A stretch of 54,541 bases of DNA from an uncultured Planctomycetota bacterium (GTDB lineage Bacteria; Planctomycetota; DG-23; DATKVD01; CAZVTD01): positions 1-54,541 of the forward strand of contig CAZVTD010000002.1 in NCBI GenBank assembly GCA_964629945.1, written 5' to 3'. The position numbers were made by a program, and so were the translations under genes. This document shows positions 27,265 to 41,802 of the stretch, in pieces. Under the pieces are notes generated by a model, which saw nothing but the letters and a program-made list of their open reading frames with translations, was not told where the DNA came from and did no database searches. Numbering within the stretch: position 1 is the stretch's first letter; the number at the start of each line of letters is the position of its first letter.

Positions 27265-27279
27265 GTGATTAGAATCACA
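27264..27279 (+). promoter_or_regulatory. Rex operator, TGTGA-N6-TCACA perfect palindrome (in context TTGTGATTAGAATCACAG), abutting the -10 box
   Basis: TGTGA at 27264-27268 and TCACA at 27275-27279. This matches the published Rex consensus TTGTGAA-N4-TTCACAA, and a rex gene lies downstream. Confidence 0.65.
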
Positions 27280-27581: not shown

Positions 27582-28193
27582 ATGCTCAGCGACAACGTGG
27601 TGGCCCGGTTGAGTCTTTACCGTCGACTTCTGCGTGTGTTGACCAGCCGCGGTGTGCAGTATGTGTTCAGTCACGAGATGGCGGTGATGGCCCGTGTGAC
27701 GGCTGCGCAGGTCAGGCGGGACGTGATGCAGTTGAATTTTTCCGGGAACCCCGCACGCGGGTATGAAGTGTCCGGACTGATGGAAAGCATCGGGCGTGCC
27801 CTAGACAACCCCGCCGGTGAAGAGGTGGCTCTGGTGGGGATCGGGAAGCGCGGGCGGGCGATCCTGGCCTATTTCGAGGGAAGGCGTCCAAAGCTTCGGA
27901 TCACGGCGGCATTCGACGTGGATCCGGCCAAGGTCAACCGAGTGATTCACGGCTGTCGGTGTCATCACCTGGACGAACTGGAGGGTGTTCTGAAGGAAAA
28001 GGGCATCCGCTGTGCGATTATCACGGTTTCCGTGGACGCGGCCCAGGACGTGGCAACGCGCCTGGTCCAGGCCGGGGTGAAGGGGGTCCTGAACTTCGCC
28101 CCTCGCCCTCTGCAGACGCCCGGGAACGTTTACATGGAGGCGATGGACGTGACGACGGCCCTGGAGCGGGTGGCTTATTTTGCACGACAGTAG
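27582..28193 (+). CDS. rex: redox-sensing transcriptional repressor Rex
   Basis: ARLSLYRRLL..., a Rossmann GxGxxG region VALVGIGKRGRAILAY, and the C-terminal VKGVLNFAP...MDVTTALE. Preceded by GAGGAGGGA. Confidence 0.88.
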   Translation: MLSDNVVARLSLYRRLLRVLTSRGVQYVFSHEMAVMARVTAAQVRRDVMQLNFSGNPARGYEVSGLMESIGRALDNPAGEEVALVGIGKRGRAILAYFEGRRPKLRITAAFDVDPAKVNRVIHGCRCHHLDELEGVLKEKGIRCAIITVSVDAAQDVATRLVQAGVKGVLNFAPRPLQTPGNVYMEAMDVTTALERVAYFARQ

Positions 28194-28244: not shown

Positions 28245-28757
28245 GTGGCGAAAATCTTTGCACGAAAGGAAGGCGAAAACGTGAGTGAGATTGATGTGGG
28301 CACGATATTGGCCGGTTTTCCGAATGCGGGTCGTGATGACCTGATTCCGATCCTGCAGGTCATGCAGGAGCGATGCGGCTATCTTTCGCACGAGGTGGTG
28401 CGACAAGTGGGACGTCACCTGAACCTGCCGGCCAGCAAGGTGTATGGTGTGGCGACGTTCTACAACCAGTTCCGGTTCCAGCCGATCGGCCGGCAGCACG
28501 TCCAGGTGTGTCGGGGGACGGCGTGTCACGTGAAGGGTTCGCTTGAGCTTCTGGAGACGATCGAAGGTGAGCTGAAGATCAAGCCCGGACACACGACGCG
28601 GGACGGGATGTTCAGTCTGGAAGTGGTGGCCTGCCTGGGAGCGTGTGGACTTTCGCCCGTCATGTGTGTCAACGGGGAGTTCCACGCACGCATGACCCCG
28701 GCGAAGGCCAGAACACTCATCGAGGGTCTGCGCAAGGAGGAGGTAGTGACCGCATGA
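28245..28757 (+). CDS. NuoE-like [2Fe-2S] subunit (HydC/HndA type) of a multimeric [FeFe] hydrogenase
   Basis: YGVATFYNQFRFQPIGRQHVQVCRGTACHVKG...VVACLGACGLSPVMCVNG shows the thioredoxin-like 2Fe-2S Cys pattern. The stop overlaps the next start (ATGA). Confidence 0.85.
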   Translation: MAKIFARKEGENVSEIDVGTILAGFPNAGRDDLIPILQVMQERCGYLSHEVVRQVGRHLNLPASKVYGVATFYNQFRFQPIGRQHVQVCRGTACHVKGSLELLETIEGELKIKPGHTTRDGMFSLEVVACLGACGLSPVMCVNGEFHARMTPAKARTLIEGLRKEEVVTA

Positions 28758-31700
28758 GCAAAGCAAATGAAACATTGACCGGACCGGCGGATCATCCCCA
28801 CGTGGCGGACAGCATCGTGATGGAGTATCTGCGTGCGGAGGGTGTGACGCGCACGGCGGAGCACCGTGAGCACATGGAGCGTCTGCGGCGCGAGGACGTG
28901 ACGGTTCCGACGATCTACGTTGGCACAGGGACGTGCGGGCTGGGAGCGGGTGCAGGCAAGGTCCTCAAGGCGATCAAGGCCCACCTGGCGGACAAGAGGA
29001 TCAAGGCAGAGATCGTCGAGGTCGGCTGCGTGGGTCTGTGTGCGTTCGAGCCGGTGATGGACGTGCAGGTCCCGGGACGGCACCGCGTGTCGTTCATGGA
29101 AGTCACCGAGGAGAACGCCGGGAAGATCATCGACGCGATGCTCGCCGGCCAGGTTCCGGAAGAGAACCTGATCGGTCAGTTTCGTTCGTCCAAGACGCAG
29201 GCGTGGGACAACGTGGCCTACCTAGACGAGCATCCGTTCTTCAAGCCCCAGCTGCGGTGGGTTCTGGAGCACAGCGGGATCATCGAGCCGACGAGCATCG
29301 AGGAGTACATCGCGCGGGGCGGCTATCTGACGCTGCTGAAGGCCGTGCGGACCTGGACCCGGGAAGAGATCTGCGACATCATCGAGAAGAGCGGGCTGCG
29401 GGGCCGAGGCGGCGGCGGCTTCCCGACCGGAAAGAAGTGGAAGTTCGCGCTCAAGGAAGCCAGCGACCAGAAGTATCTCATCTGCAACGCCGACGAAGGC
29501 GATCCCGGCGCGTTCATGGACCGTGCGCTGATCGAAAGCGACCCGCACCGACTGCTCGAGGGCATGATGCTGGCCGCGTATGCCATCGGAGCCAACAAGG
29601 CGTACGTGTACATCCGTGCGGAGTATCCGCTGGCCATCCGCCGGCTCAAGACGGCGATCGCCCAGGCCCGTGCATACGGTCTGGTGGGCGAGGACATCAT
29701 GAAGAGCGGTTTCGCGCTGGAGTTCGTGATCAAGATGGGAGCGGGTGCGTTCGTGTGCGGTGAGGAAACGGCGCTCATCCACAGCATCGAGGGGAAGCGC
29801 GGCATGCCGAGACCGAGACCGCCTTATCCGGCGGTGTCGGGTCTGTTCGGGAAGCCCACGGTGATTAACAACGTGGAGACCCTGGCGAACGTTCCGGCGA
29901 TCGTGCGCAACGGTGCGGCCTGGTTTGCCGGCGTGGGGACCGAGAAGAGCAAGGGCACGAAGATCTTCGCCCTGTCGGGGAAGGTCAACCGGACGGGACT
30001 GGTCGAGGTGGCGATGGGCACGACCATCCGCCAGGTGGTCTTCGACATCGGCGGCGGCATCCCGGGAGGCAAGGCCTTCAAGGCGGTGCAGATCGGTGGC
30101 CCGTCGGGCGGATGTCTTCCGACACAACTGCTGGACACGCCAATCGACTACGAGTCGGTGAAGTCGGCCGGCGCGATCATGGGCTCGGGCGGACTGGTGA
30201 CGCTGGACGAGACGACGTGCATGGTGGACCTGGCGAAGTTCTTCCTGCAGTTCGTTCAGAACGAGAGCTGCGGGAAGTGCATCCCCTGTCGCGAGGGGAC
30301 CAAGCGGATGCTCGAGATCCTGGAAGGGATCACGCGTCCCGCGCACCAGGAGCGCGACATGGACGCTCTCACGCGATTCCAGGGCGTGCTGCGTCTGAAG
30401 AACCTCGCCGAGATGATCCGTCAGACGAGCCTGTGCGGACTCGGACAGACGGCACCCAGTCCCGTGCTGAGCACACTGCGGTGGTTCCGAGACGAGTATG
30501 AAGCTCACGTGTTCGAGCGACGCTGTCCGGCGGGGGCCTGCAAGGATCTCGTGGGGGCGGTGTGCCAGAACGCGTGTCCGGTGGGGACGGAAGTGTGGCG
30601 TTACGTGGCGCACGTGGCCCGCGGGGAATACGAGGACGCTTACCGGACGATCCGCAGTGCGAACCCGTTCCCGTCGGTCTGCGCGCGCGTGTGCAACCAT
30701 CCGTGCGAGGCATATTGCCGGGCGGGTGCAACCGGTGGAGAGGCGATCGCGGTCCGGACCCTGAAGCGTTTCGTGGTGGATCATGTGTCCCCGAGCGCGT
30801 TCTTCGAGGAAGTCAAGCCCGCAGCCGCCGACGCCCCACGCATTGCCGTGGTGGGCGCCGGACCGGCGGGTCTCACCGCGGCACATCAACTGAGCAAGCT
30901 GGGCTTCCTGGTGACGATCTTCGAGCGCGAATCCGTGGCGGGTGGGATGCTGAGAGCAGGCATCCCGGCGTACCGGCTGCCCCGGGCACGCCTGGAGGAG
31001 GAGATCGAGCTGCTGCTGAACGGGAACGTGGAGCTGAAGCTGAACCAGGAACTGGGGAAGGACTTCACGGTCGATTCGCTGCTGAAGCAGGGATACAAGG
31101 CGGTGTATCTGGCGATGGGTGCGCACGCCAGCCGGAAGCTGGGTGTTCCGGGTGAAGACGTCGATGGCGTCATCCACGGCATCCGCTTCCTGAAGGCCTT
31201 CAACCTGGCGGGCAAGTCCCTGGCCAAGGGCAAGGTGGGCATCATCGGTGGCGGGAATTCCGCGCTGGACGCGGCCCGTGTGGCGATTCGTCAGCAGGGC
31301 GTCGAGGCGGTCACGATCTACTATCGTCGGACACGTCACGAGATGCCGGCGTATGCCGAGGAGATCGAGGCGGCGCTGGAGGAAGGCGTCCAGCTGAAGA
31401 CGCTGGTGTCTCCGGTCGAAGTGCTGTCCAAGGGAGGCAAGCTCACGGGTGTGAAGTTCCTCAAGAACGAGCTGGGTCCCGCGGACGCCAGTGGACGGCG
31501 AAGTCCCGTGCCGGTTCCGGGCACGGAGTATGTCGAGGAGATGGACACGCTGATCGTGGCCATCAGTGAGAACCCGGAGACGACGGCCGTCGACGGTGGA
31601 CTGAAGCGGAGTCGCGACGGACGGGTGACGGTGAGCTCGGAGTCGCACGCGACGGACCGTGAAGGCGTCTTCGCGGGTGGCGACGTCGTGAGAGGTCCCA

Positions 31701-31996
31701 ACACGGTGATCGAGGCCATCGCGGACGGGAAGCACGCGGCCCGCATGATCTACAATTACGTGACGGGTCGGCTGCTGAAGACGCTTCCGAAGGTCCGCAT
31801 GCCGAGCTTTTACATCGAGCCTCTGGAGGAAGAGGAAGAGCCTCCGGTCAACCGGATCGCCTCTCCCACGCTCGGTGTTTCGGAGCGACGCGGGAACTGT
31901 GATGAAGTGGAGTTGTGTGTTTCGGAAAGCGCCGCGCGTTGCGAAGCGAGGCGGTGTCTGCGCTGCGACCTGAGCTTCACGCAGCCGAGGTCATGA
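28754..31996 (+). CDS. fusion protein: NuoF-like flavoprotein (HydB type; NADH/FMN/4Fe-4S) joined to a GltD/NfnB-like FAD-NAD(P)H oxidoreductase module
   Basis: N-terminal half: GLRGRGGGGFPTGKKWKF, ICNADEGDPGAFMDR, ESCGKCIPCREG. From about 30.5 kb: CPAGAC...CQNACP...ANPFPSVCARVCNHPCEAYC, IAVVGAGPAGLTAAHQL, VGIIGGGNSALDAARVA. Start ATG 28754 (MSKANETL). Confidence 0.85.
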   Translation: MSKANETLTGPADHPHVADSIVMEYLRAEGVTRTAEHREHMERLRREDVTVPTIYVGTGTCGLGAGAGKVLKAIKAHLADKRIKAEIVEVGCVGLCAFEPVMDVQVPGRHRVSFMEVTEENAGKIIDAMLAGQVPEENLIGQFRSSKTQAWDNVAYLDEHPFFKPQLRWVLEHSGIIEPTSIEEYIARGGYLTLLKAVRTWTREEICDIIEKSGLRGRGGGGFPTGKKWKFALKEASDQKYLICNADEGDPGAFMDRALIESDPHRLLEGMMLAAYAIGANKAYVYIRAEYPLAIRRLKTAIAQARAYGLVGEDIMKSGFALEFVIKMGAGAFVCGEETALIHSIEGKRGMPRPRPPYPAVSGLFGKPTVINNVETLANVPAIVRNGAAWFAGVGTEKSKGTKIFALSGKVNRTGLVEVAMGTTIRQVVFDIGGGIPGGKAFKAVQIGGPSGGCLPTQLLDTPIDYESVKSAGAIMGSGGLVTLDETTCMVDLAKFFLQFVQNESCGKCIPCREGTKRMLEILEGITRPAHQERDMDALTRFQGVLRLKNLAEMIRQTSLCGLGQTAPSPVLSTLRWFRDEYEAHVFERRCPAGACKDLVGAVCQNACPVGTEVWRYVAHVARGEYEDAYRTIRSANPFPSVCARVCNHPCEAYCRAGATGGEAIAVRTLKRFVVDHVSPSAFFEEVKPAAADAPRIAVVGAGPAGLTAAHQLSKLGFLVTIFERESVAGGMLRAGIPAYRLPRARLEEEIELLLNGNVELKLNQELGKDFTVDSLLKQGYKAVYLAMGAHASRKLGVPGEDVDGVIHGIRFLKAFNLAGKSLAKGKVGIIGGGNSALDAARVAIRQQGVEAVTIYYRRTRHEMPAYAEEIEAALEEGVQLKTLVSPVEVLSKGGKLTGVKFLKNELGPADASGRRSPVPVPGTEYVEEMDTLIVAISENPETTAVDGGLKRSRDGRVTVSSESHATDREGVFAGGDVVRGPNTVIEAIADGKHAARMIYNYVTGRLLKTLPKVRMPSFYIEPLEEEEEPPVNRIASPTLGVSERRGNCDEVELCVSESAARCEARRCLRCDLSFTQPRS

Positions 31997-32050
31997 AAGA
32001 CAGATCTGCCTCCGGGCAGACAGGAAATGAGCGACACGAGGGAGTAGCGG

Positions 32051-33772
32051 ATGATAACGATAGAAGTGGACGACCGGAGTTTCCAGGCGCGAGAAGGCGA
32101 GACGATCCTGTCGGTTCTGAAGCGTGAGGGCATCAGTGTTCCGACGCTCTGTCACGTGGAGGGACTTCCCCCGACCGGAGCGTGCCGACTGTGTCTGGTG
32201 GAGTTGGTGGGTCCCGGGACACTGGTGCCGTCGTGTTCCTTTCCCGTGGCGAACGGGATGAAGATCAGGTCCAATTCGGCGAAGGTTCTGCACGCGCGAC
32301 GGACGATCCTGGAGCTGCTCCTTGCCGACCATCCCGACGACTGTCTGTATTGCAGTCGAAACGGAAATTGTCAGCTCCAGCGGCTTGCGGAAGAGCTGGG
32401 TGTGCGTGAGCGGCGGTACCACGGTCACAAGAACAGTCGCGACATGGACGTTTCCAGTCCGTCGATCATTCGTGATCCGGACAAGTGCGTGCTGTGCGGG
32501 AAGTGTGTCCGGGTTTGCGAAGAGGTCCAGGGGGTGGCGGCCATCGACTTCATCGGTCGCGGCGCCAAGACCACCGTGGGCACCGTTTTCGACACCGGAC
32601 TGAACCTGTCGAGCTGCGTTAACTGCGGACAGTGCATCCTCGCCTGTCCGACCGGCGCCTTGAGCGAGCATTCGTACGTGGATGACGTGGTGGCGGCCCT
32701 GTCGGACCCGAGGAAAACCGTGGTGGTCCAGCACGCGCCGGCCGTGTCCGTCTCCCTGGCGGAGGAGTTCGGCGTGAAACCGGGCAAGGACATCGACGGA
32801 AAGATGGTCGGCGCCCTGCGTCAGGTGGGCTTCCGCTGGGTGTTCGACACGTCGTTCAGCGCGGACCTGACCATCATGGAAGAGGGTTCGGAGCTGGTCG
32901 AGCGGATCAAGACGGGCGGGGTGCTGCCCCTGTTGACAAGCTGCTCCCCCGGCTGGATCAAGTTCGTGGAGCAGTTCTATCCCGAGTTCATTCCCAACGT
33001 TTCGACGTGCAAGAGTCCCCAGCAGATGCTGGGCGCCCTGATCAAGAGCTACTTCGCCGAGAAACAGGGGCTGAACCCTGAAGAGATCGTGAGCGTTTCG
33101 ATCATGCCCTGCACAGCCAAGAAGTTCGAGTGCAGTCGTGAGGAGATGTCGCAGGATCACGTCCCCGACGTGGACTACGTGCTGACGACCCGTGAACTCG
33201 GAGCCCTGCTGCGGATGGTCGGGGGCGATCACGTCAACATGAAACCTGCCCCGGCGGACACGCCCTTCGGCGAGCGTTCCAGCGCGGGGAAGATCTTCGG
33301 GGCATCGGGCGGCGTGATGGAAGCGGCCATCCGAAGTGCACACTACCTGCTGACCGGTCAGGAGCTGGCGGACCTGAAGGTCGAGCCGGTTCGTGGTCTG
33401 GACGGGATCAAGGAGGCGCACCTCAAGATCAACGGGCTGGAAGTCGGCGTGGCCGTGGTGAACGGATTGGGAAACGCCCGGAAGCTCCTCGACCAGCTGC
33501 GTGCCGGCCGGAAGGACCTTCACTTCATCGAGGTGATGACCTGTCCGGGCGGCTGCATCGGTGGCGGCGGTCAGCCGATGGGCGCCGACATCAACGCCCT
33601 GAAGGCGCGTATGCAGGCCCTGTATCGGATCGACCGTGACGAGACGCTCCGTGTCAGTCACAAGAACGAGATGGTGCAGCGTCTGTATAAGGAATTCCTG
33701 GGACAACCTCTGGGCGAGGTCAGTCACCGCCTGTTGCACACACACTACCACCACCGTGACGTGGCCGTGTGA
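32051..33772 (+). CDS. hydA: [FeFe] hydrogenase catalytic subunit (M3-type: 2Fe-2S, His-ligated 4Fe-4S, two ferredoxin clusters, H-domain)
   Basis: HPDDCLYCSRNGNC; CVLCGKCVRVCEE; CVNCGQCILACPTGA. H-cluster motifs are TSCSPGW (L1, with a Ser variant), MPCTAKKFE (L2) and EVMTCPGGCIGGGGQP (L3). Confidence 0.9.
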   Translation: MITIEVDDRSFQAREGETILSVLKREGISVPTLCHVEGLPPTGACRLCLVELVGPGTLVPSCSFPVANGMKIRSNSAKVLHARRTILELLLADHPDDCLYCSRNGNCQLQRLAEELGVRERRYHGHKNSRDMDVSSPSIIRDPDKCVLCGKCVRVCEEVQGVAAIDFIGRGAKTTVGTVFDTGLNLSSCVNCGQCILACPTGALSEHSYVDDVVAALSDPRKTVVVQHAPAVSVSLAEEFGVKPGKDIDGKMVGALRQVGFRWVFDTSFSADLTIMEEGSELVERIKTGGVLPLLTSCSPGWIKFVEQFYPEFIPNVSTCKSPQQMLGALIKSYFAEKQGLNPEEIVSVSIMPCTAKKFECSREEMSQDHVPDVDYVLTTRELGALLRMVGGDHVNMKPAPADTPFGERSSAGKIFGASGGVMEAAIRSAHYLLTGQELADLKVEPVRGLDGIKEAHLKINGLEVGVAVVNGLGNARKLLDQLRAGRKDLHFIEVMTCPGGCIGGGGQPMGADINALKARMQALYRIDRDETLRVSHKNEMVQRLYKEFLGQPLGEVSHRLLHTHYHHRDVAV

Positions 33773-33786
33773 GGACGGGGACCGAG

Positions 33787-34257
33787 ATGAAACAGGGTGA
33801 CGAAAACAAAAACAAAGGACTGACGATGAACCAAGCGAAGAAGAAAATTCTGGTGGTGGACGACGATCCGGACATTATCGTACAGCTGAAGGCCCTCCTG
33901 GATCAGGAGTACGTGGTGGAGACGGCCCCCCCGGGGGCCGAGGCGGAGGAGATCCTCATGGGTTCGCGTCCGGATCTGGCGATCATCGACCTGATGATGG
34001 AGACGCGTGACTCCGGCTTTATGCTGTGTCACAACATCAAGCGACTGTATCCCGGGACCCCCGTCATGATGCTGACGGGAGTCAAGGCCACCACGGGCAT
34101 GTCGTTCACGGCCGGACCGGGTGAAGAAGACTCGTGGTTCGAGGCCAACCTTCTGCTGGACAAGCCTGTGCGTCCCGATCAGCTCCGCAGGGACGTTCGG
34201 CGACTTCTGAGCAAGGATCCACAGGCGAAGAAGGAAGGGGCTCATAAGAAAGGGTGA
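33787..34257 (+). CDS. stand-alone response-regulator receiver (REC) protein
   Basis: KILVVDDDPDII...PDLAIIDLMME...VMMLTG...LLDKPVRPDQL. There is no output domain. The start could be ATG 33826 or GTG 33769. Confidence 0.8.
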   Translation: MKQGDENKNKGLTMNQAKKKILVVDDDPDIIVQLKALLDQEYVVETAPPGAEAEEILMGSRPDLAIIDLMMETRDSGFMLCHNIKRLYPGTPVMMLTGVKATTGMSFTAGPGEEDSWFEANLLLDKPVRPDQLRRDVRRLLSKDPQAKKEGAHKKG

Positions 34258-36287
34258 GGGGACGTCGAGAAAAGGACGCAGGCGTCATGGGCGCGACCCG
34301 GTTTGTAGAGACCATCAAAGAGCGCTGCAGGATGTGCTACACGTGCGTGCGCGAGTGCCCTGCCAAGGCGATCCGGATTGTTGAGGGACAGGCCGAGGTG
34401 ATGGGGGAGCGGTGCATCGCCTGTGGAAACTGTGTGCGGGTCTGTTCCCAGAAGGCCAAGCAGGTCGTGCACTCGGTGAAGGAGGTGGAGGACCTTCTTG
34501 CGGGGGACGTCGACGTCGCGGCCATCCTGGCACCGAGCTTCCCGGCGGAGTTTGCCGAATGCGACTACGAACGGGTCGTCGGGATGCTCCGGGCGCTGGG
34601 GTTCACCTACGTTAACGAAGTGGCCTTCGGTGCAGACCTGGTGGCCGACTGGTACCGACGCACGCTGCAGAACGGGGATTCCTCCCGTCAGATCGCAACG
34701 GCTTGTCCGGCGGTCGTGGCCTACGTGGAGAAGCACCAGCCGGACCTGATCAAGAGTCTGGCCCCGGTCGTTTCGCCCATGATCGCGACGGCACGAGCCC
34801 TGCGACAGATCCACGGACCGGCACTCCGGGTGGTCTTCATCGGTCCCTGCGTGGCCAAGAAGGCGGAGATGCAAAGCTCTCCCGTTTCCGGAGAGGTCGA
34901 CGCCGTCCTGACCGTCGTCACCCTGCGCGAGATGCTGAAGGCACATGATCTCACCCCGGAAAGTGTATCGCCCAGTGATTTCGACGAGCCTCGGGGAGGG
35001 TTGGGCGCCCTCTTCCCCATCAGCCGGGGAATGCTGCAAGCCGCGGGACTCAACGAGAACCTCATGAACGGGGAGGTCGTCACCACGGAGGGTCGGACGA
35101 ACTTCGTGGAAGCCCTGGAGGAATTCCCCCGTGGCGACGTTCGGACCCGGCTGCTCGAAGTCCTGGCCTGTCAGGGATGCATTCTCGGTCCGGGCATGAG
35201 CCACCGGACGCCCCTGTTTTCGGCACGGGCCCGCGTCGCACACTACGTGACGGAACGGACCAAACGACAGGACCTGGAAGCCTGGCGCAAGCAGGTGGAG
35301 AGCTTCAGGAACCTGGACCTCGCCCGCACGTACGAGGCGAGTGATCAGCGAATCTGGCCCCCAGAGGAGCACGAGATCCAGCAGATCCTCATCAACATGG
35401 GGAAGAAGTCCATCCAGGATGAGCTGAACTGCGGGGCATGCGGATACGACACCTGTCGCGAGCACGCCGTGGCGATCCACCGGGGACTGGCCGAGAGCGA
35501 GATGTGTCTGCCTTACACCATCGACCAGCTTCGCAAGACGATCCAGGACCTTGCGGTCACAAACGATCGTCTGGCGAATACCCAGGCGGCACTGATCCAG
35601 TCCGAGAAACTGGCCAGCATGGGACAACTGGCCGCCGGGATCGCCCACGAGGTAAACAACCCCCTGGGTGTCGTCCTCATGTATGCCCATCTCCTTCAGG
35701 ACGAACACGGGAAGGATCCCACGATGGCGGCCGACCTCGACATGGTTGTCCGTCAGGCGGACCGCTGTCGCAAGATCGTCGCCGGACTGCTTCATTTCGC
35801 CCGTCAGAACAAGGTGGTCAGGGAGCCGACGGACGTTCGGAAGCTGGTGGAGGAGACCCTCCGTGCCTTGAGTCCACCCGACAACGTCCAGGTGGTCATC
35901 GACTGTCAGATGAAGGACCCGATCGCTGAGCTGGACCATGACCAGACCTGTCAGATGCTGACCAACCTGATCACCAACGCCTACGCGGCCATGAGCGATC
36001 GGAACGGGACCCTCACGGTGCTCATCGAAGAGAAGGGAGATGACGTGCTGTTTTCGGTCATCGACACCGGTGTGGGGATCAAGCCGGAGCACATGTCGAA
36101 GATCTTCGAGCCGTTCTTCACCACCAAGCAAATCGGCAAAGGCACCGGACTGGGACTGGCGATAACGTACGGGATCGTTAAGATGCACCGTGGGGATATT
36201 TCGGTGAAATCCAATGCGGACCCTGCCAAGGGGCCGACGGGCACAACATTTACCGTGAGGCTGCCCCGCAAGGGGCAGGAGGATTGA
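34254..36287 (+). CDS. [FeFe]-hydrogenase-like sensory domain fused to a histidine kinase (HydS-like, kinase-linked)
   Basis: Two ferredoxin motifs (CRMCYTCVRECP, CIACGNCVRVC). H-domain-like motifs ATACPAVV, GPCVAKKAE, LACQGCILGPG. CGACGYDTC-N16-C motif. Then a coiled linker and the kinase boxes GIAHEVNNPLG (H), LTNLITNAYAAM (N), DTGVGI, GKGTGLGLAI. Alternative start ATG 34287. Confidence 0.85.
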   Translation: MRGRREKDAGVMGATRFVETIKERCRMCYTCVRECPAKAIRIVEGQAEVMGERCIACGNCVRVCSQKAKQVVHSVKEVEDLLAGDVDVAAILAPSFPAEFAECDYERVVGMLRALGFTYVNEVAFGADLVADWYRRTLQNGDSSRQIATACPAVVAYVEKHQPDLIKSLAPVVSPMIATARALRQIHGPALRVVFIGPCVAKKAEMQSSPVSGEVDAVLTVVTLREMLKAHDLTPESVSPSDFDEPRGGLGALFPISRGMLQAAGLNENLMNGEVVTTEGRTNFVEALEEFPRGDVRTRLLEVLACQGCILGPGMSHRTPLFSARARVAHYVTERTKRQDLEAWRKQVESFRNLDLARTYEASDQRIWPPEEHEIQQILINMGKKSIQDELNCGACGYDTCREHAVAIHRGLAESEMCLPYTIDQLRKTIQDLAVTNDRLANTQAALIQSEKLASMGQLAAGIAHEVNNPLGVVLMYAHLLQDEHGKDPTMAADLDMVVRQADRCRKIVAGLLHFARQNKVVREPTDVRKLVEETLRALSPPDNVQVVIDCQMKDPIAELDHDQTCQMLTNLITNAYAAMSDRNGTLTVLIEEKGDDVLFSVIDTGVGIKPEHMSKIFEPFFTTKQIGKGTGLGLAITYGIVKMHRGDISVKSNADPAKGPTGTTFTVRLPRKGQED

Positions 36288-36311: not shown

Positions 36312-36689
36312 ATGGCAAAGGTATTGCTGGTGGATGACGACGAGGACCTGGTGACGATGAACAGGAAAGTCCTGGAAGCACGGGGACACCAGGTGCTGAG
36401 CGCCTTCTCGGGAAAGGAAGCGCGTGAGGTTCTGAAGAAAGAAGCCCCGGACGTGGCGGTCCTGGACGTGATGATGGAGTCGCTCAGCGCGGGTTTTGAA
36501 CTCGCACGAGAGATGAATCGAACCCACCCGAAAATGCCGATACTGATGTTGTCGGGCATCGAGGAAAAGACGGGTCTCGGTTTCAAGGGGCTCGAGGACG
36601 ACCAGTGGCTCCCCGTTTTCAGGTTCATCGATAAGCCGCTTTCACCCGACAAATTGGCTGAAAAGGTGGAAGAAGTCCTGAAGAAGTGA
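36312..36689 (+). CDS. stand-alone response-regulator receiver (REC) protein, paralogous to 33787-34257
   Basis: KVLLVDDDEDLV...PDVAVLDVMME...ILMLSG...FIDKPLSPDKL. Confidence 0.85.
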   Translation: MAKVLLVDDDEDLVTMNRKVLEARGHQVLSAFSGKEAREVLKKEAPDVAVLDVMMESLSAGFELAREMNRTHPKMPILMLSGIEEKTGLGFKGLEDDQWLPVFRFIDKPLSPDKLAEKVEEVLKK

Positions 36690-36720: not shown

Positions 36721-37887
36721 ATGGAAACTCTACGTGTTCTGGTGGCGGACGACGAGCCGGGGATGCGTATGGGGGCGGCGCGTGCCCTGAAGGATCTCCG
36801 CATGAAATTGCCCGCCATGGAGGAAGAATACGGCCTCAGCATCTCGGAGGCGGCTTCCGGGGAGGAAGCCATGGAGTTCATCCGGAAGAACGGCACGGAC
36901 ATCCTGCTGCTGGACCACAAGATGCCCGGAATCTCGGGACTCGATCTCCTGCGCACGCTTGCCGAAGAGCAATACGACGTCCTCGCGATCATGATCACCG
37001 CCTACGCGTCACTCGACGTGGCCATCTCGGCAACACGTCGCGGCGCGTACGATTTCCTCGCCAAGCCATTCACCCCGGAAGAGTTGAGGGGGACCGTGCG
37101 CAAAGCAGCCAAGCACGTGCTCCTCGAACGCCAGGCCCGCAGGCTTGCCGAGGAAAAGAAACAGGTCCGCTTTCAGTTTCTGTCGGTCCTCGCCCACGAA
37201 CTCAAGGCCCCCCTGGCCGCCCTGGAAGGATATCTCCAGATCCTGGGCAACAAGTCGCTGGGCAACGATCCGGCGGCGTATGAAGGGATGATCGACCGGT
37301 GTCTCGTGCGCTCCGAGCACATGCGCAAGCTCATCACCGACCTGCTCGACCTCACACGGATCGAGTCCGGTCAGAAACGCAGGACGCTGAGCATGGTTGA
37401 CGTTGCCGAAATCGCTCGCCTGGCGCTGGAGACGGCGGGACCCCAGGCGGCGGAGCGCCAGATCAACCTCAAGCTGGAGTCGGCCGGTCCCGTGACGATG
37501 CAGGCCGATGCGGGCGAAATCGAGGTCATTCTCAACAATCTCGTCTCCAATGCGGTAAAATATAATAGGCAGGAAGGCAAGGTCACGGTCACGCTGGATC
37601 GGGAGGCTGATAGGGTCAGGATCGCGGTGTCCGACACCGGCATCGGTATCCGTCCGGAGGACCGCGAAAAACTGTTCACGGAGTTTTTCAGGGTGAAAAG
37701 CGAACAGACGCGTTCGATCTTGGGAAGCGGTCTGGGTTTGTCGATCGTGCGGAAGCTGGCAATGCTGTATGGCGGCGAGGCGACCGTGGAAAGCGAGCCG
37801 GGGAAAGGCTCGACGTTCACCGTCACGCTGCGAGATGAGCCGCCCGGGGGGGCCAATGAAGCACCAAGGACCCGGGAGGTGAATTGA
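36721..37887 (+). CDS. hybrid receiver-histidine kinase (N-terminal REC + HisKA + HATPase_c)
   Basis: LRVLVADDEPGM...DILLLDHKMPGISG...FLAKPF; H-box FLSVLAHELKAPLAAL; N/G boxes LNNLVSNAVKYN, DTGIGI, GSGLGLSIV. Confidence 0.88.
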   Translation: METLRVLVADDEPGMRMGAARALKDLRMKLPAMEEEYGLSISEAASGEEAMEFIRKNGTDILLLDHKMPGISGLDLLRTLAEEQYDVLAIMITAYASLDVAISATRRGAYDFLAKPFTPEELRGTVRKAAKHVLLERQARRLAEEKKQVRFQFLSVLAHELKAPLAALEGYLQILGNKSLGNDPAAYEGMIDRCLVRSEHMRKLITDLLDLTRIESGQKRRTLSMVDVAEIARLALETAGPQAAERQINLKLESAGPVTMQADAGEIEVILNNLVSNAVKYNRQEGKVTVTLDREADRVRIAVSDTGIGIRPEDREKLFTEFFRVKSEQTRSILGSGLGLSIVRKLAMLYGGEATVESEPGKGSTFTVTLRDEPPGGANEAPRTREVN

Positions 37888-37888
37888 A

Positions 37889-38944
37889 GTGGCTGGTCTG
37901 AGTCGTGCGGAGGTGCTGAAATGGCTGTGCACGGAGGACGAGGAGGCGCTGTGCGAACTCCGTGAGCGTGCCGATGCGGAGCGTCGGCGACGGGTCGGGG
38001 ACCAGGTCCACCTGCGGGGACTCATCGAGATATCCAACCACTGCGTGCGAAGCTGTCATTACTGTGGTCTGCGCGGACCGAACCACGGGCTGAAACGGTA
38101 CCGTCTCACCCGGGAACAGGTGCTCCAGAGCGCCCGGCTGGCGTTGAGCCTGGGTTATGGAACGGTGGTGATCCAGTCCGGAGAGGACCCGGGTCTCACG
38201 AGCGACTGGGTGACGGAACTGATCGAAACCATCCGTCGACAGACCCGGCTTGCGGTAACACTCAGCCTAGGAGAGCGTTCGGACGAGGAGTTGGCCGCGT
38301 GGCGATACGCGGGAGCCGACCGTTATCTCCTGCGCTTCGAGACGTCCAGGCGGGATCTCTACGAACGCATTCATCCGCCTCTCGCGTCGACACCCAGTGA
38401 TCGCATCCGCCTGCTGAGACGGCTTCGGGAGCTGGGCTACGAGATGGGCACGGGAATGATGATCGGAATCCCGGGGCAAACCCTCGAAGACCTGACCGAT
38501 GACATCATGCTGCTGGCCGAACTCGACCCGGACATGATCGGTCTGGGGCCGTTCGTTCCTCATCCGGATACGCCGCTGGGCAAGGTGGTCCCGGTCACTT
38601 CCGGACAGGCTCCCAATTCGGAAAACATGGTTCTCAAGGTACTGGCTTTGGTGAGGCTGGTCTGTCCGATGTCGAACATCCCGGCGACAACGGCACTGGC
38701 CTCGATCGACCCCGAAGGGGGATATGAAGCCGGGCTGCGTTGGGGCGCAAATGTGATCATGCCCAACGTCAGTCCGGCCGAGGTGCGCAAGTTCTATCAG
38801 ATTTACCCGGGAAAGGTGTGTGTCACGGAGACCATCGAGTTTCATGAGCGCCTGGTCCGTCGGATTCAGGAGATGGGACGCAGCGTGGGTGTCGGACGGG
38901 GCGACTCGGCGGCCTACCTGGCGCGACAGAAGGGAGCGGTGTAG
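37889..38944 (+). CDS. hydE: [FeFe] hydrogenase H-cluster radical SAM maturase HydE
   Basis: LIEISNHCVRSCHYCGLRGPN is a CX3CX2C motif in HydE/BioB-like context. Length is 351 aa. GTG start lies 1 nt after the upstream stop. Confidence 0.85.
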   Translation: MAGLSRAEVLKWLCTEDEEALCELRERADAERRRRVGDQVHLRGLIEISNHCVRSCHYCGLRGPNHGLKRYRLTREQVLQSARLALSLGYGTVVIQSGEDPGLTSDWVTELIETIRRQTRLAVTLSLGERSDEELAAWRYAGADRYLLRFETSRRDLYERIHPPLASTPSDRIRLLRRLRELGYEMGTGMMIGIPGQTLEDLTDDIMLLAELDPDMIGLGPFVPHPDTPLGKVVPVTSGQAPNSENMVLKVLALVRLVCPMSNIPATTALASIDPEGGYEAGLRWGANVIMPNVSPAEVRKFYQIYPGKVCVTETIEFHERLVRRIQEMGRSVGVGRGDSAAYLARQKGAV

Positions 38945-38946
38945 AG

Positions 38947-40371
38947 ATGACTGACCTGGCCCAGATGACGTTGAGTCGCGGGGCGGTGGATTTTATCAAC
39001 GATGATGAGCTGACGAACCTGCTGGCGCAGCCAAGTCCGCAGCCGGAGCGAGTCCGCGAGGTGATCGCCAAGAGCCTCGCGAAGGAACCCCTGACCGTTG
39101 AGGAGACGGCCGTGCTGCTGCGGGCCGAGGACCCCGAGATGGTGAACGAGATCTTCGAGGCGGCACGCCGACTCAAGCGGGAGGTTTACGGAAACCGGAT
39201 CGTCCTGTTCGCCCCGCTGTATATCGGAAACTACTGCGTGAACGACTGCGCCTACTGCGCGTTCAAGCGCTCGAACCGCGAGGCGGTAAGGCGCACGCTG
39301 ACCCGTGACGAACTGGTCGGACAGGTGGAAGCCCTGGAACGCCAGGGGCACAAACGCCTCATCCTGGTCTTCGGGGAGCATTCGGCCTACAACGCGGATT
39401 TCATCGCGGACTGCGTGCGGACCGTGTATGGCGTGCGTCTCGGACATGGCGAGATCCGGCGGGTGAACATCAACGCGGCCCCACTGGACCACGAGGGATA
39501 CCGCAAGGTCAAAGAGGCCGGGATCGGCACATATCAGGTCTTCCAGGAGACTTATCACCACGCAACCTACGAACGCTATCATCCGGCCGGGACACGCAAG
39601 GGAGATTTCCAGTACCGTCTGGACGCCCTGAGCCGGGCCATGGAGGCCGGCCTCGACGACGTCGGCATCGGAGCGCTGTTCGGACTCTACGACTGGCGTT
39701 TCGAAGTCCTGGGACTGGTCTCTCACGCGCGATATCTCGCCGAACGGTACCACTGCGGACCACACACCATCAGCTTCCCCCGACTGCGTCCGGCGGCAGG
39801 GGTCCGGTTCGACGAAAAATGGTTCGTCCGTGACGAGCACTTCAAACGTGTCATCGCGATTCTGAGACTCGCGGTGCCTTATACGGGACTGATTCTCACG
39901 GCCAGGGAAAACCCCGAGCTTCGACGGGAGGTCATGGCCTTCGGCGTCTCCCAGATCGACGCCGGCAGCCGCATTGAAATTGGCGGCTACACCGAGGCGG
40001 GCGACGCCCAGGTGATGGAGCGTGAGCAGTTCTCGCTCGGGGACATCCGGTCGCTGGACACCGTCATGCGCGAACTGATGGCGGATGGGTACGTCCCCAG
40101 CTTCTGCACGGCGTGCTATCGCCTGGGACGCACCGGTGAGCATTTCATGGAGTTCGCCATCCCGGGGTTCATCCGCAACTTCTGCACACCCAATGCGCTT
40201 TCAACGCTTGAGGAATACCTCGTCGATTATGCCTCTCCGGAGACGCGCAAAACGGGTGAGACGCTCATCGCCCGCGCACTCGATGCGATGGACGAAGGGC
40301 CGGTCAAGACGGAACTGATCGAGCGGCTGAAACGCATCAAAGCAACCGACGACCGCGACCTCTATTTCTGA
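38947..40371 (+). CDS. hydG: [FeFe] hydrogenase H-cluster radical SAM maturase HydG
   Basis: PLYIGNYCVNDCAYCAFKRSN, with a ThiH-like body and the C-terminal Cys motif PSFCTACYRLGRTGEHF. Length is 474 aa. Confidence 0.9.
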   Translation: MTDLAQMTLSRGAVDFINDDELTNLLAQPSPQPERVREVIAKSLAKEPLTVEETAVLLRAEDPEMVNEIFEAARRLKREVYGNRIVLFAPLYIGNYCVNDCAYCAFKRSNREAVRRTLTRDELVGQVEALERQGHKRLILVFGEHSAYNADFIADCVRTVYGVRLGHGEIRRVNINAAPLDHEGYRKVKEAGIGTYQVFQETYHHATYERYHPAGTRKGDFQYRLDALSRAMEAGLDDVGIGALFGLYDWRFEVLGLVSHARYLAERYHCGPHTISFPRLRPAAGVRFDEKWFVRDEHFKRVIAILRLAVPYTGLILTARENPELRREVMAFGVSQIDAGSRIEIGGYTEAGDAQVMEREQFSLGDIRSLDTVMRELMADGYVPSFCTACYRLGRTGEHFMEFAIPGFIRNFCTPNALSTLEEYLVDYASPETRKTGETLIARALDAMDEGPVKTELIERLKRIKATDDRDLYF

Positions 40372-40389
40372 GCCGAACCGGAGACGCAC

Positions 40390-41802
40390 ATGAGCGAATA
40401 CCGCACCGAGAAAGACCTGCTGGGCGAATACCAGGTGCCCGCCAACGCGCTCTTCGGGGTTCACACCGCGCGCGCCATCGAGAACTTCCCTCTGGCCCGA
40501 CGGAAGGTCAACCCGGCCCTGATCCACGCGTACGGACAGGTGAAGCTGGCCTGCACGCGCACCAATCGTGAACTCGGGTTCCTTCAGGACACCATCGCGG
40601 CGGCGTTGGAAAGGGCCTGCGACGAACTTGCCGAGGGACTTCTCGACGAACACATCGTGGTGGATGCCCTCCAGGGAGGCGCCGGAACCTCGACGAACAT
40701 GAACGTCAACGAGGTGCTCGCCAACCGTGCACTCGACATCCTGGGTAAGCCGCGCGGCGACTACGTCACGATCAGTCCCCTCGGTCACGTGAACCTCCAC
40801 CAGTCCACCAACGACACTTACCCGACGGCGCTGAAGGTGGCGGCGATGCGTCGGCTGGACGTCCTGGAGCGGGAGGTCGTCGGACTTCAGGAGGCATTCC
40901 AGAAGAAGGAAAAGGAATTCGCCCACGTGGTGAAGGTAGGCCGAACGCAGCTCCAGGACGCCGTGCTCGTGACACTGGGTCGCGAGATGTCGGCTTACGC
41001 CGAGGCGTTCGCACGTGATCGCTGGCGCGTTTATAAGTGCCGGGAACGCATCCGCGTAATCAACCTCGGCGGAACCGCCGTCGGCACGGGACTGGGTGCG
41101 CCGCGGCGCTATATCTTCCGCGTCATTGAGCAGCTTCGCGAGATCACCGGACTCGGACTCGCACGCGCCGAGAACATGGTCGAAGCCACCCAGAACACCG
41201 ATGCCTTCGTCGAGGTCTCCGGCATCCTCAAGGCCCTGGCTTCGAACCTCCTCAAGGTCGCTACGGATCTCCGCCTCCTCTCCTCGGGACCCGTCGCGGG
41301 ACTGGGCGAACTGCATCTTCCCCCGCGACAGGCCGGCAGTTCCATCATGCCGGGGAAGGTGAACCCCGTGATCCCCGAGGCCGTGTCCCAGGCGGCGCTC
41401 GTCGTCTTCGGAAACGACCAGGCCCTGACCATGGCTTGTTCACTCGGCAACCTCGAACTCAATGCTTTCATGCCGCTGGTGGCCGACGCCCTTCTCGGAA
41501 GCATCGACCTCCTGATTGGAGCCTGTGACATCCTCCGAAGGCTGTGTGTCGAAGAACTCCAGGCCGATGAAGTGCGCTGCCGTGCTGCGGTCGAAACCGC
41601 CACGGCCAGCGTGACGGCGCTGGTGGAGCGGATCGGATACACCCAGGCGCAGGAGGTTGCCAAGTCCGCGGCGGCCCAGGGGAAATCCGTCCGTCAGGTC
41701 GTCCTGGAAAAAGGACTGCTCCGTCCTGAAGAGTTCGACGCACTCATCTCGGCCGAACGCGTCACCCGTCTGGGTTCCCCCGACACGGAGATCAACCGAT
41801 GA
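40390..41802 (+). CDS. aspA: aspartate ammonia-lyase-like protein (class II fumarase/aspartase superfamily)
   Basis: MSEYRTEKDLLGEYQVPANALFGVHTARAIENF... and the superfamily signature GSSIMPGKVNPVIPE. The stop overlaps the hydF start (ATGA). Confidence 0.85.
   Translation: MSEYRTEKDLLGEYQVPANALFGVHTARAIENFPLARRKVNPALIHAYGQVKLACTRTNRELGFLQDTIAAALERACDELAEGLLDEHIVVDALQGGAGTSTNMNVNEVLANRALDILGKPRGDYVTISPLGHVNLHQSTNDTYPTALKVAAMRRLDVLEREVVGLQEAFQKKEKEFAHVVKVGRTQLQDAVLVTLGREMSAYAEAFARDRWRVYKCRERIRVINLGGTAVGTGLGAPRRYIFRVIEQLREITGLGLARAENMVEATQNTDAFVEVSGILKALASNLLKVATDLRLLSSGPVAGLGELHLPPRQAGSSIMPGKVNPVIPEAVSQAALVVFGNDQALTMACSLGNLELNAFMPLVADALLGSIDLLIGACDILRRLCVEELQADEVRCRAAVETATASVTALVERIGYTQAQEVAKSAAAQGKSVRQVVLEKGLLRPEEFDALISAERVTRLGSPDTEINR

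What the first reader, a model, noticed from the sequence alone, without database searches (positions are those of the whole stretch)
34254..36287. Hydrogenase-like H2-sensor domain fused directly to a histidine kinase, with sensor-type substitutions and one deviant motif
The N-terminal 430 aa carry two ferredoxin 4Fe-4S motifs and H-domain-like motifs.
- L1 is ATACP (34698-34709) instead of TSCCP. The proton-relay Cys position is Ala while the cluster-ligand Cys is kept.
- L2 is GPCVAKKAE (Cys codon 34848-34850), with Gly where catalytic enzymes have Met.
- A Cx2Cx4Cx16C motif (CGACGYDTC...C, 35430-35507) follows the H-domain.
As I recall, exactly these features (Cys to Ala, Met to Gly, extra Cx2Cx4Cx16C cluster) were described for the putative sensory hydrogenase HydS of Thermotoga maritima. 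Here there is no PAS domain; a coiled linker runs straight into the DHp H-box (GIAHEVNNPLG).
The L3 equivalent is LACQGCILGPG (35169-35180). The two Cys are spaced CxxC rather than the canonical CxxxC of ExMACxxGCxxGGGQP, and the GGGQP tail is missing. It is therefore open whether a canonical H-cluster is bound at all. Kinase-linked hydrogenase-like proteins have been predicted in classification schemes, but I know of no mechanistic characterisation.
Basis: partly seen in the sequence, partly recalled or inferred. Interest (0 to 1): 0.85.

Follow-up and report, generated by a model that had tools for sequence, protein, structure and literature searches.

The report
Hydrogenase-like sensor fused to histidine kinase
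This gene encodes a soluble signalling kinase whose input half is a modified iron-iron hydrogenase; it belongs to a widespread class that databases already list as putative hydrogen sensors but nobody has tested, and it sits inside the operon for the hydrogenase it probably helps to control.

Summary
ORF 34254..36287 (+), probably starting at ATG 34287 (666 aa), encodes 2x[4Fe-4S] ferredoxin motifs, an [FeFe]-hydrogenase H-domain, a Cx2Cx4Cx16C cluster motif, a coiled-coil linker and a HisKA/HATPase_c kinase core, with no PAS domain.

It is not a one-off. Thousands of homologues exist, in at least 585 species-level genomes across many phyla (the 80 loci fetched are all MAGs). It corresponds to HydDB [FeFe] Group C1, "histidine kinase-linked (putative)"; I infer this and did not run the classifier.

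The short CxxC spacing in L3 is an almost perfect clade marker. It separates sensors fused to signalling outputs (kinase, sigma-54 activator, GGDEF, some via PAS or GAF) from PAS-only sensors, which keep CxxxC. TamHydS, which binds an H-cluster, also has CxxxC, with Leu at M497 and no GGGQP tail. Only the shortened Cys loop lacks a biochemical precedent.

All four H-cluster Cys and the residues that contact only the [2Fe] subcluster are conserved. The last cluster Cys lies exactly 47 residues from the phospho-His in 121 of 121 homologues, in heptad register.

The gene sits in a conserved 12-gene operon: Rex-HydCBA-REC-sensor-REC-REC/kinase-HydE-HydG-AspA-HydF.

Most likely it is an H2-responsive kinase. 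H2 sensing itself is unproven.

The parts
34287..36287 (+). Sensor histidine kinase CDS. The maximal ORF starts at GTG 34254; the likely start is ATG 34287 (666 aa).
34326..34445 (+). Two ferredoxin-type CxxCxxCxxxC motifs (Cys 25/28/31/35 and 54/57/60/64), predicted to bind two relay [4Fe-4S] clusters.
   Evidence: All eight Cys are kept in 119-121 of 121 homologues.
34515..35192 (+). [FeFe]-hydrogenase H-domain, aa 88-313.
   Evidence: Pfam PF02906, E = 1e-46. AF2 pLDDT is mostly above 90. Foldseek top hits are solved [FeFe] hydrogenases, TM 0.65-0.68 normalised to DdH.
34695..34709 (+). L1 equivalent ATACP. Ala150 sits at the proton-relay Cys (CpI C299) position; Cys151 is the cluster ligand (C300).
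34842..34868 (+). L2 equivalent GPCVAKKAE. Gly197 sits at CpI M353; Cys199 = C355, Lys202 = K358, Glu205 = E361.
35163..35195 (+). L3 equivalent LACQGCILGPG. Leu304 sits at CpI M497; Cys306 = C499 and Cys309 = C503. The Cys loop is one residue shorter than canonical.
35430..35507 (+). C-terminal Cx2Cx4Cx16C motif (Cys 393/396/401/418), predicted to bind a [4Fe-4S] cluster as in HydS-type proteins.
   Evidence: Pfam PF04060. Invariant in 121 of 121. 35% identical to the same motif region of TamHydS.
35508..35645 (+). Coiled-coil signalling helix, aa 419-464. It links the last cluster Cys to the phospho-His, with a 3-4-3-4 hydrophobic pattern and no gaps in the family.
35619..36272 (+). Kinase core: HisKA (aa 456-518, phospho-acceptor His465 at nt 35646-35648) and HATPase_c (aa 561-673).
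33769..34257 (+). REC-only response regulator RR1. The JGI call starts at 33826. Its stop overlaps the maximal sensor ORF.
36312..36689 (+). REC-only response regulator RR2.
36721..37887 (+). REC-HisKA-HATPase_c hybrid. A counterpart follows the sensor in about 69-70 of 80 related loci.
27236..27280 (+). Operon promoter: TTGACA, 17-nt spacer, TATATT (11 of 12 matches), with a Rex-type palindrome TTGTGATTAGAATCACAG starting within or just after the -10 box.
27582..28193 (+). Rex-family redox-sensing repressor, first gene of the operon.
28245..33772 (+). HydC (28245-28757), HydB as a NuoF-GltD fusion (28754-31996) and HydA, a group A [FeFe] hydrogenase (32051-33772). This enzyme is the presumed target of regulation.
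37889..43046 (+). H-cluster maturation genes HydE (37889-38944), HydG (38947-40371) and HydF (41799-43046), with an AspA homologue (40390-41802) between HydG and HydF.

Best explanation
**Identity.** This is a cytoplasmic, soluble sensor histidine kinase. Its input module is a sensory-type [FeFe] hydrogenase of the HydDB Group C1 kind.

**Proposed mechanism. Steps 1-6 are inferred, none is shown; the closing sentence states what is shown.**
1. The N-terminal half binds two relay [4Fe-4S] clusters, an H-cluster matured by the co-encoded HydE, HydG and HydF, and a C-terminal [4Fe-4S] cluster.
2. The proton-relay Cys and the rest of the group A proton pathway are missing, so turnover should be slow. 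The redox and ligand state of the H-cluster would then report H2 partial pressure relative to the cell's redox poise.
3. That state changes the conformation of the H-domain and C-terminal cluster domain.
4. The change travels down a rigid coiled coil of fixed length and fixed register. The coil begins directly at the last cluster Cys (Cys418) and runs into the DHp helix, so it alters autophosphorylation at His465.
5. The phosphoryl group passes to the adjacent REC-only proteins and/or the REC-kinase hybrid.
6. This multi-step relay, together with the NADH-sensing repressor Rex at the single operon promoter, adjusts production or activity of the co-transcribed HydABC hydrogenase.

The architecture, the residue conservation, the linker geometry and the synteny are shown. 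Cofactor binding, H2 responsiveness, the sign of the response and the final output are inferred.
For: - **Domains and fold:**
- **Cys ligands:** the four H-cluster Cys are invariant in 121 of 121 close homologues and kept in 83-84 of 84 CxxC-class representatives.
- **[2Fe]-specific contacts:** residues that contact only the [2Fe] subcluster are conserved about as well as in the CxxxC class. A230 62/84, P231 78/84, S232 68/84, P324 79/84, K358 67/84 plus 5 Arg, E361 79/84.
- **Sensor-type losses:** C299 to Ala, M353 to Gly, M497 to Leu, and Tyr/Thr/Gly/Ala at E279/E282/R286/S319. These match the published sensory-type traits (PMC8163306, PMC10055695).
- **Affiliation:** the module is closer to TamHydS (E = 1e-21, plus a match over the C-terminal motif) than to the neighbouring HydA (E = 1e-15).
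- **Portable input module:** the same CxxC module is fused to a kinase, PAS-kinase, GAF-kinase, sigma-54 activators and GGDEF.
- **Linker:** Cys418 to His465 is 47 aa in 121 of 121 homologues. 28 of 33 more distant direct fusions have 47 +/- 7n; 11 of 16 when the 47-aa class is excluded, P = 1e-6.
- **Synteny:** HydA lies upstream in 66 of 80 loci, a REC-kinase hybrid downstream in about 69-70 of 80, and HydE/G/F downstream in 22-28; many loci are truncated.
- **Operon:** one strong promoter and gene spacing from -4 to 54 nt from rex to hydF.
Against: - No member of the CxxC clade has been characterised, and no solved or characterised [FeFe] hydrogenase I could check has this L3 spacing. CpI, DdH, TmHydA, TkHydA and TamHydS all have CxxxC.
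- AF2 confidence around L3 is lower (pLDDT about 76-82) than in the rest of the H-domain.
- In TamHydS the C-terminal cluster is not reduced by H2 (PMC13104023). Redox change of that cluster is therefore not an established signalling step.
- The maturases in the operon are needed by HydA anyway, so they do not prove the sensor is matured.
- No DNA-binding response regulator is encoded in the operon or in most related loci. The output is unknown.
Confidence: 0.6

Rival explanations
1. A redox or iron-sulfur sensor without a [2Fe] subcluster. On this reading the shortened L3 loop leaves only a [4Fe-4S] cluster in the H-domain, as in Nar1/NARF-type proteins. The kinase would then report the ferredoxin or NADH pool, or oxygen or iron status, and not H2.
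For: - The L3 loop is one residue shorter than in every hydrogenase checked.
- The canonical L1, L2 and L3 signatures all fail. The authors of PMC11406978 could hardly find P1-P3 in C1 proteins and called H2 sensing unclear.
- The M497L change in CpI is reported to lack a properly integrated [2Fe] cluster (PMC10055695).
Against: - Residues whose only known role is to hold the [2Fe] subcluster (the APS motif, SP, K358, E361) are under strong conservation.
- TamHydS has Leu at M497 and no GGGQP tail, and it still takes up [2Fe]-adt spontaneously (PMC8163306).
- A rare member that lost one Cys ligand lost all four together (P0164). The site behaves as one functional unit.
Confidence: 0.2
2. An accessory or regulatory subunit of the HydABC complex, in the sense of the 'BfuT' subunits described for C3 proteins. 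The hydrogenase-like half would dock on or exchange electrons with HydABC. Signalling would then act mainly after translation, through the REC-only proteins, and not through transcription.
For: - The sensor is tightly co-transcribed next to HydA.
- Only REC-only and REC-kinase proteins are conserved near it, and no DNA-binding regulator.
- PMC11406978 treats group C3 proteins as a T subunit of BfuABC.
Against: - There is no evidence of complex formation.
- The same sensor module is fused directly to sigma-54 transcriptional activators in relatives, which points to transcriptional control as a common output.
- In five loci where I found no Rex, an NtrC-type REC-sigma-54 activator lies 5.9-9.4 kb upstream of the sensor on the opposite strand.
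Confidence: 0.12
3. A sensor of H-cluster inhibitors or damage (CO, O2, NO) and not of H2. The slow, CO-tolerant sensory-type site would serve as a sentinel that protects or shuts down the catalytic enzyme.
For: Characterised sensory-type enzymes react unusually with CO and O2 (PMC8163306). The active-site pocket here is altered in the same way.
Against: Nothing in the sequence specifically supports this reading. H2 is the natural ligand of the conserved site, and the operon encodes an H2-metabolising enzyme.
Confidence: 0.06

Closest known systems
HydDB [FeFe] Group C1, 'histidine kinase-linked (putative)' hydrogenases (PMC5037454; Hydrogenedentota examples in PMC11406978)
   Same: - A sensory-type H-domain associated with a histidine kinase.
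- Often located next to a group A hydrogenase.
- A HATPase_c domain and poorly matching P1-P3 motifs are reported for the Hydrogenedentota members.
- MAGs from that study's dataset carry homologues 56-62% identical to this protein (L001, L053).
   Different: Nothing substantive. I could not run the HydDB classifier, and that paper notes that its best-matching HydDB C1 reference lacks the kinase ATPase domain. No member has been characterised biochemically.
TmHydS of Thermotoga maritima (group C, M2f), the characterised putative sensory [FeFe] hydrogenase
   Same: - Two N-terminal [4Fe-4S] motifs.
- Ala at the C299 position and Gly at the M353 position.
- A C-terminal Cx2Cx4Cx16C cluster motif.
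   Different: - TmHydS ends in a PAS domain and has no kinase.
- It has Ser at M497 where this protein has Leu.
- Its L3 spacing could not be checked here. All 50 representatives in which a PAS domain but no other output was detected, and that keep both L3 Cys at the canonical spacing, belong to the CxxxC class; one PAS-only representative is CxxC.
TamHydS of Thermoanaerobacter mathranii (group D, M2e)
   Same: - Ala at C299 and Leu at M497.
- A GGP tail in place of GGGQP.
- The C-terminal Cx2Cx4Cx16C motif and no PAS domain.
- 29% identity over 215 aa.
   Different: - TamHydS is a stand-alone protein with the kinase-like ATPase encoded separately.
- It has Ser at M353.
- Its L3 spacing is the canonical CxxxC.
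- Its L1-to-L2 spacing matches group A (55 residues between the two Cys, against about 48 here).
Regulatory [NiFe] hydrogenase HoxBC with the kinase HoxJ and regulator HoxA (HydDB [NiFe] group 2b)
   Same: The same logic: a slow hydrogenase acts as the H2 receptor for a histidine kinase that controls hydrogenase genes. This rests on established knowledge and the HydDB table (PMC5037454).
   Different: An unrelated metal centre and protein fold. Sensor and kinase are separate polypeptides joined through a PAS-like domain, and the output regulator (HoxA) is a known DNA-binding protein.

Membership tests
[FeFe] hydrogenase H-domain superfamily | Significant match to the Fe_hyd_lg_C profile and the same fold | tested here: met
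   Pfam E = 1e-46. PDB sequence hits down to E = 5e-23. Foldseek top hits are [FeFe] hydrogenases.
[FeFe] hydrogenase H-domain superfamily | Four Cys ligands of the H-cluster (CpI C300, C355, C499, C503) | tested here: met
   Cys151, 199, 306 and 309 are each invariant in 121 of 121 homologues.
Catalytic (group A) [FeFe] hydrogenases | Canonical signatures TSCCP, MPCxxKxxE and ExMxCxxxCxxGGGQP | tested here: not met
   The protein has ATACP, GPCVAKKAE and EVLACQGCILGPG. The L3 loop is one residue shorter.
Catalytic (group A) [FeFe] hydrogenases | Proton-transfer pathway C299, E279, S319, E282, R286 | tested here: not met
   Ala, Tyr, Ala, Thr and Gly occupy these positions. The window's own HydA keeps all five.
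Any H-cluster-binding protein | Actual incorporation of the [2Fe] subcluster and reaction with H2 | not testable with these tools
   Needs maturation followed by FTIR or EPR. Conservation of the [2Fe] contact residues is only indirect support.
Putative sensory [FeFe] hydrogenases (groups C and D, HydS type) | N-terminal 2x[4Fe-4S] motifs, loss of C299 and of both Met, and a C-terminal Cx2Cx4Cx16C motif | tested here: met
   compared against the descriptions in PMC8163306 and PMC10055695.
Putative sensory [FeFe] hydrogenases (groups C and D, HydS type) | Genomic linkage to a group A hydrogenase | tested here: met
   The gene lies one gene downstream of HydA in the same operon. HydA is upstream in 66 of 80 related loci.
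TmHydS-type (M2f) sensors | PAS domain after the C-terminal cluster motif | tested here: not met
   No PAS hit. Only 35 helical residues separate the PF04060 match from the HisKA match.
HydDB [FeFe] Group C1 (histidine kinase-linked) | Assignment by the HydDB classifier or its sequence-similarity network | not testable with these tools
   HydDB is not available here. Membership is inferred from the architecture and from homologues in MAGs of the PMC11406978 dataset.
HisKA-type sensor histidine kinases | H-box His plus N, G1, F and G2 boxes | tested here: met
   His465, the NLxxN box, DTGVGI, FEPFFTTK and GTGLGL are invariant in the family. The core matches the ZraS structure.
HisKA-type sensor histidine kinases | Autophosphorylation and phosphotransfer to a partner receiver | not testable with these tools
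   Needs in-vitro phosphorylation assays with RR1, RR2 and the REC-kinase hybrid.
Nar1/NARF-like proteins (no [2Fe] subcluster) | Closer relationship to Nar1/NARF than to bacterial hydrogenases, and loss of the [2Fe]-binding residues | tested here: inconclusive
   The nearest relatives are all bacterial HydS-like proteins, and the [2Fe] contact residues are conserved. No Nar1 sequence was available for a direct comparison.

The most novel reading that the evidence does not exclude
The one-residue-shorter L3 loop may define a distinct and so far unstudied H-cluster environment, or possibly a different cofactor state. This module would then serve as a general, portable gas or redox input domain. 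It would be wired by a register-locked coiled coil to at least four classes of signalling output: histidine kinase, sigma-54 activator, diguanylate cyclase, and PAS- or GAF-linked kinases. In the Rex-type operons, which lack any DNA-binding response regulator, its phosphorelay might act after translation on the hydrogenase or on Rex, and not through a classical transcription factor.
Probability: 0.2. Interest if true: 0.75.

Novelty: new member of a known kind. Interest (0 to 1): 0.5.

Why it matters
[quoted passage not shown] Both characterised models lack a built-in output, so their 'signal' cannot be read directly.

**What this family offers.** In a direct kinase fusion the output is an enzymatic activity on the same polypeptide. 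A single purified protein could show whether H2 changes autophosphorylation.

**What this analysis adds**
- The short L3 loop marks the whole clade of sensors fused to signalling outputs.
- The linker is register-locked to the last cluster Cys.
- The system sits in a widely conserved operon with Rex, two kinds of receiver protein and the maturases.

**Where it occurs.** The organisms are mostly uncultured anaerobes (Planctomycetota, Hydrogenedentota and others) from habitats where H2 turnover shapes community metabolism.

Tried and rejected
- **Unbiased gene-family census.** I picked non-overlapping ORFs by length in the 80 loci. It failed because long antisense shadow ORFs in high-GC DNA displaced the real genes. 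I discarded it and used probe-based tblastn and a REC-centred ORF census.
- **Rooting the NJ tree on the window's HydA.** This gave an uninformative result on a long outgroup branch. I used the best unrooted split instead.
- **Rex-operator count.** Two matches against 0.86 expected, so the count alone is not significant. The site matters only because it is a perfect TGTGA-N6-TCACA palindrome starting within or just after the -10 box of the one strong promoter.
- **TmHydS sequence.** Text searches of four papers and two supplements and numbering-based matching to the representatives all failed. Its L3 spacing stays untested. TamHydS was recovered from an OCR-noisy supplement; one dropped base in the L3 codons was restored by inference.
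- **5' leader.** Rfam found nothing in the 300-nt leader upstream of rex.
- **REC-only proteins.** PDB searches gave only generic receiver matches.
- **Nar1/NARF affiliation.** I considered it and think it unlikely, but I could not test it directly.
Full report
**1. The observation**

The ORF exists as described: 34254..36287 on the + strand, 677 aa from a GTG.
- Two CxxCxxCxxxC ferredoxin motifs: aa 25-35 and 54-64.
- ATACP: aa 148-152.
- GPCVAKKAE: aa 197-205.
- LACQGCILGPG: aa 304-314.
- Cx2Cx4Cx16C: aa 393-418.
- H-box GIAHEVNNPLG: aa 462-472.

Pfam gives Fer4-family matches, Fe_hyd_lg_C (aa 88-313, E = 1e-46), PF04060 'FeS' (391-420), HisKA (456-518) and HATPase_c (561-673), and no PAS domain.

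The likely start is ATG 34287 (666 aa). The JGI call for the identical protein starts there. It fits the homologue N-termini and has an AAGGA 11-15 nt upstream.

HMMER aligns L3 to solved hydrogenases with a one-residue gap, so the CxxC spacing is a real indel.

**2. How common it is**

The word-indexed search returned 7996 hits. The best 120 are full-length, 60-73% identical and share the architecture. A scan of one genome per species found at least 585 encoded relatives. The 80 loci fetched are all MAGs, labelled Planctomycetota, Hydrogenedentota, Lentisphaerota, Myxococcota, Acidobacteriota, Fermentibacteria, Marinimicrobia, Fibrobacteria, Bacteroidales and others.

In the query plus its 120 closest homologues, the four H-cluster Cys, the CxxC spacing, the Cx2Cx4Cx16C motif and the H-box His are each invariant. 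The position of the proton-relay Cys is Thr, Ser or Ala.

**3. Wider relatives and the L3 indel**

An exhaustive HMMER search with the sensor half found 4962 representative proteins at E <= 0.001. I aligned the best 150, which are 32-56% identical.
- L3 is CxxC in 84, CxxxC in 58 and degenerate in 3.
- An unrooted split of the NJ tree puts 56 CxxxC proteins on one side and all 84 CxxC proteins on the other. Two CxxxC proteins are outliers.
- The CxxxC proteins are about 555-620 aa, and 50 of them have a detectable PAS domain.
- The CxxC proteins carry a kinase (45), GAF plus kinase (1), sigma-54 activator (10), PAS plus sigma-54 activator (4), GGDEF (4) or PAS only (1); 18 have no detected output. 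Pfam confirmed examples of each fusion type, including a PAS-kinase.

The module behaves as a portable input domain, and the short loop marks the clade fused to signalling outputs.

**4. Does it bind an H-cluster?**

This cannot be shown by computation. Indirect evidence favours binding.
- Residues whose known role is to hold the [2Fe] subcluster are conserved in the CxxC class about as well as in the CxxxC class. These are the equivalents of CpI A230-P231-S232, P324, K358 and E361 (CpI numbering from established knowledge, cross-checked).
- One representative that lost a Cys ligand lost all four together (P0164).
- The AF2 model has pLDDT above 90 over most of the H-domain, but only 76-82 around L3. 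Its best structural matches are [FeFe] hydrogenases.
- I recovered the TamHydS coding sequence from a paper supplement. It reads DFFEGLACIGGCIGGP. That is Leu at M497, no GGGQP tail and canonical CxxxC spacing. TamHydS takes up [2Fe]-adt spontaneously (PMC8163306).

The shortened loop does not. I could not obtain the TmHydS sequence.

**5. Sensor-type traits**

Ala replaces C299, Gly replaces M353 and Leu replaces M497. The proton-pathway positions E279, E282, R286 and S319 are Tyr, Thr, Gly and Ala, while the neighbouring HydA keeps all of them. This matches what is published for groups C and D (PMC8163306, PMC10055695). The module is closer to TamHydS than to its own HydA.

**6. Coupling to the kinase**
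- The last cluster Cys (Cys418) and the phospho-His (His465) are exactly 47 residues apart, without gaps, in 121 of 121 homologues.
- Invariant hydrophobic residues follow a 3-4-3-4 pattern from Leu419 onward.
- Among 33 more distant direct fusions, 28 have spacings of 33, 40, 47, 54 or 68, all equal to 47 +/- 7n. Leaving out the 47 class, 11 of 16 are in register (P = 1e-6). Counting distinct lengths only, 4 of 9 are in register (P = 0.03). Relatedness inflates the first figures.
- AF2 predicts helices over this stretch, with low confidence, as expected when a dimeric coiled coil is modelled as a monomer.
- The kinase boxes are invariant, and the core resembles ZraS and AtoS.

**7. Genomic context**

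The gene is the sixth of twelve genes with spacing from -4 to 54 nt.

| Gene | Coordinates |
|---|---|
| Rex | 27582-28193 |
| HydC | 28245-28757 |
| HydB (NuoF-GltD fusion) | 28754-31996 |
| HydA | 32051-33772 |
| REC-only RR1 | 33769-34257 |
| Sensor kinase | 34287-36287 |
| REC-only RR2 | 36312-36689 |
| REC-HisKA-HATPase hybrid | 36721-37887 |
| HydE | 37889-38944 |
| HydG | 38947-40371 |
| AspA homologue | 40390-41802 |
| HydF | 41799-43046 |

- One strong promoter (11 of 12 matches) lies at 27236-27264. A Rex-type palindrome at 27263-27280 starts within or just after its -10 box. There are no convincing internal terminators.
- In the 80 related loci, HydA is upstream in 66, HydB in 59, HydC in 57 and Rex in 47. 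A REC-kinase hybrid follows the sensor in about 69-70. HydE, HydG and HydF follow in 22-28. Many loci are cut short.
- Receiver-domain ORFs in those loci are REC-only (77), REC-kinase (69) or, in only 6 loci, NtrC-type REC-sigma-54 activators. Five of those six are loci where I found no Rex.
- The relay therefore has no conserved DNA-binding output next to it.

**8. Comparison with what is known**

HydDB defines [FeFe] Group C1 as 'histidine kinase-linked (putative); may sense H2' (PMC5037454). A 2024 study of Hydrogenedentota found 53 C1 genes, 21 of them next to group A3 genes. It detected HATPase_c in them, could 'hardly' find P1-P3, and called H2 sensing unclear (PMC11406978). MAGs from that dataset carry homologues of this protein. 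A June 2026 preprint still calls C1 'putatively sensory'.

Only TmHydS and TamHydS have been characterised, and the signalling mechanism is unresolved (PMC13104023). This gene is thus a new member of a known, predicted class.

What appears not to be in the papers I read:
- the clade-marking L3 indel;
- the range of fused outputs;
- the register-locked linker;
- the conserved Rex/REC/REC-kinase/maturase operon.

**9. Verdict**

The most likely function is an H2-responsive kinase that tunes the co-transcribed hydrogenase together with Rex. I put about 0.6 on that reading. Interest is moderate. The class is already catalogued, but a direct kinase fusion is probably the most tractable system for testing whether sensory [FeFe] hydrogenases sense H2.

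Noticed in passing
window 32936-32950 and 33002-33025 (HydA, 32051-33772): The catalytic HydA next to the sensor reads TSCSP where canonical L1 is TSCCP. Ser therefore sits at the position of the [4Fe-4S] ligand Cys (CpI C300), while the proton-relay Cys is kept. The variant appears in 63 of 72 tblastn matches to this L1 segment in the related loci, and it usually comes with an extra Cys at the CpI-321 position (STCKSPQQ; 59 of the 63 TSCSP matches). The only literature mention I found is a passing remark on Melainabacteria hydrogenases (PMC3787301). Which residue ligates the cluster is unknown.
   Followed up: partly
window 28754-31996 and 19070-25058: HydB is a fusion of a NuoF-type flavoprotein with a GltD-like (glutamate synthase small subunit) module. 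The genes for glutamate synthase large and small subunits (gltB 20487-25058, gltD 19070-20494, minus strand) lie divergently upstream. The fused HydB occurs in about 10 of the 80 related loci, and in most of those a REC-only gene sits between HydA and the sensor.
   Followed up: partly
window 27236-27581: A near-consensus promoter (TTGACA, 17-nt spacer, TATATT) is followed within or just after its -10 box by a Rex-type palindrome TTGTGATTAGAATCACAG (27263-27280). A roughly 300-nt leader then precedes rex. No Rfam family matches the leader.
   Followed up: partly
window 35766-35768 (Cys505 of the sensor kinase): A Cys in the second DHp helix (motif DRC) is conserved in 120 of 121 close homologues. 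It lies outside any cluster motif. It could be structural or a redox-sensitive site.
   Followed up: no
window 40390-41802: An aspartate ammonia-lyase homologue sits between HydG and HydF, and its stop overlaps the HydF start. The same placement recurs in most of the 15 related loci that carry this gene, which suggests a link to H-cluster maturation.
   Followed up: partly
loci L008, L017, L021, L027, L060 (5.9 to 9.4 kb upstream of the sensor, opposite strand): In related loci where I found no Rex, an NtrC-type REC-sigma-54 activator lies upstream of the hydrogenase genes on the opposite strand. It may be the transcriptional output of the relay in those lineages.
   Followed up: partly
protein P0164 (also P0163 and P0243): A few relatives of the sensor module have lost their H-cluster Cys ligands. 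P0164 has lost all four. These look like cofactor-free pseudo-sensors.
   Followed up: no
window 35646-35660 and 36721-37887: The sensor's H-box reads HEVNN, with Asn at the position linked to phosphatase activity in HisKA kinases (from my own knowledge). The downstream REC-kinase hybrid reads HELKA and lacks it. The two kinases may therefore differ in phosphatase capacity.
   Followed up: no
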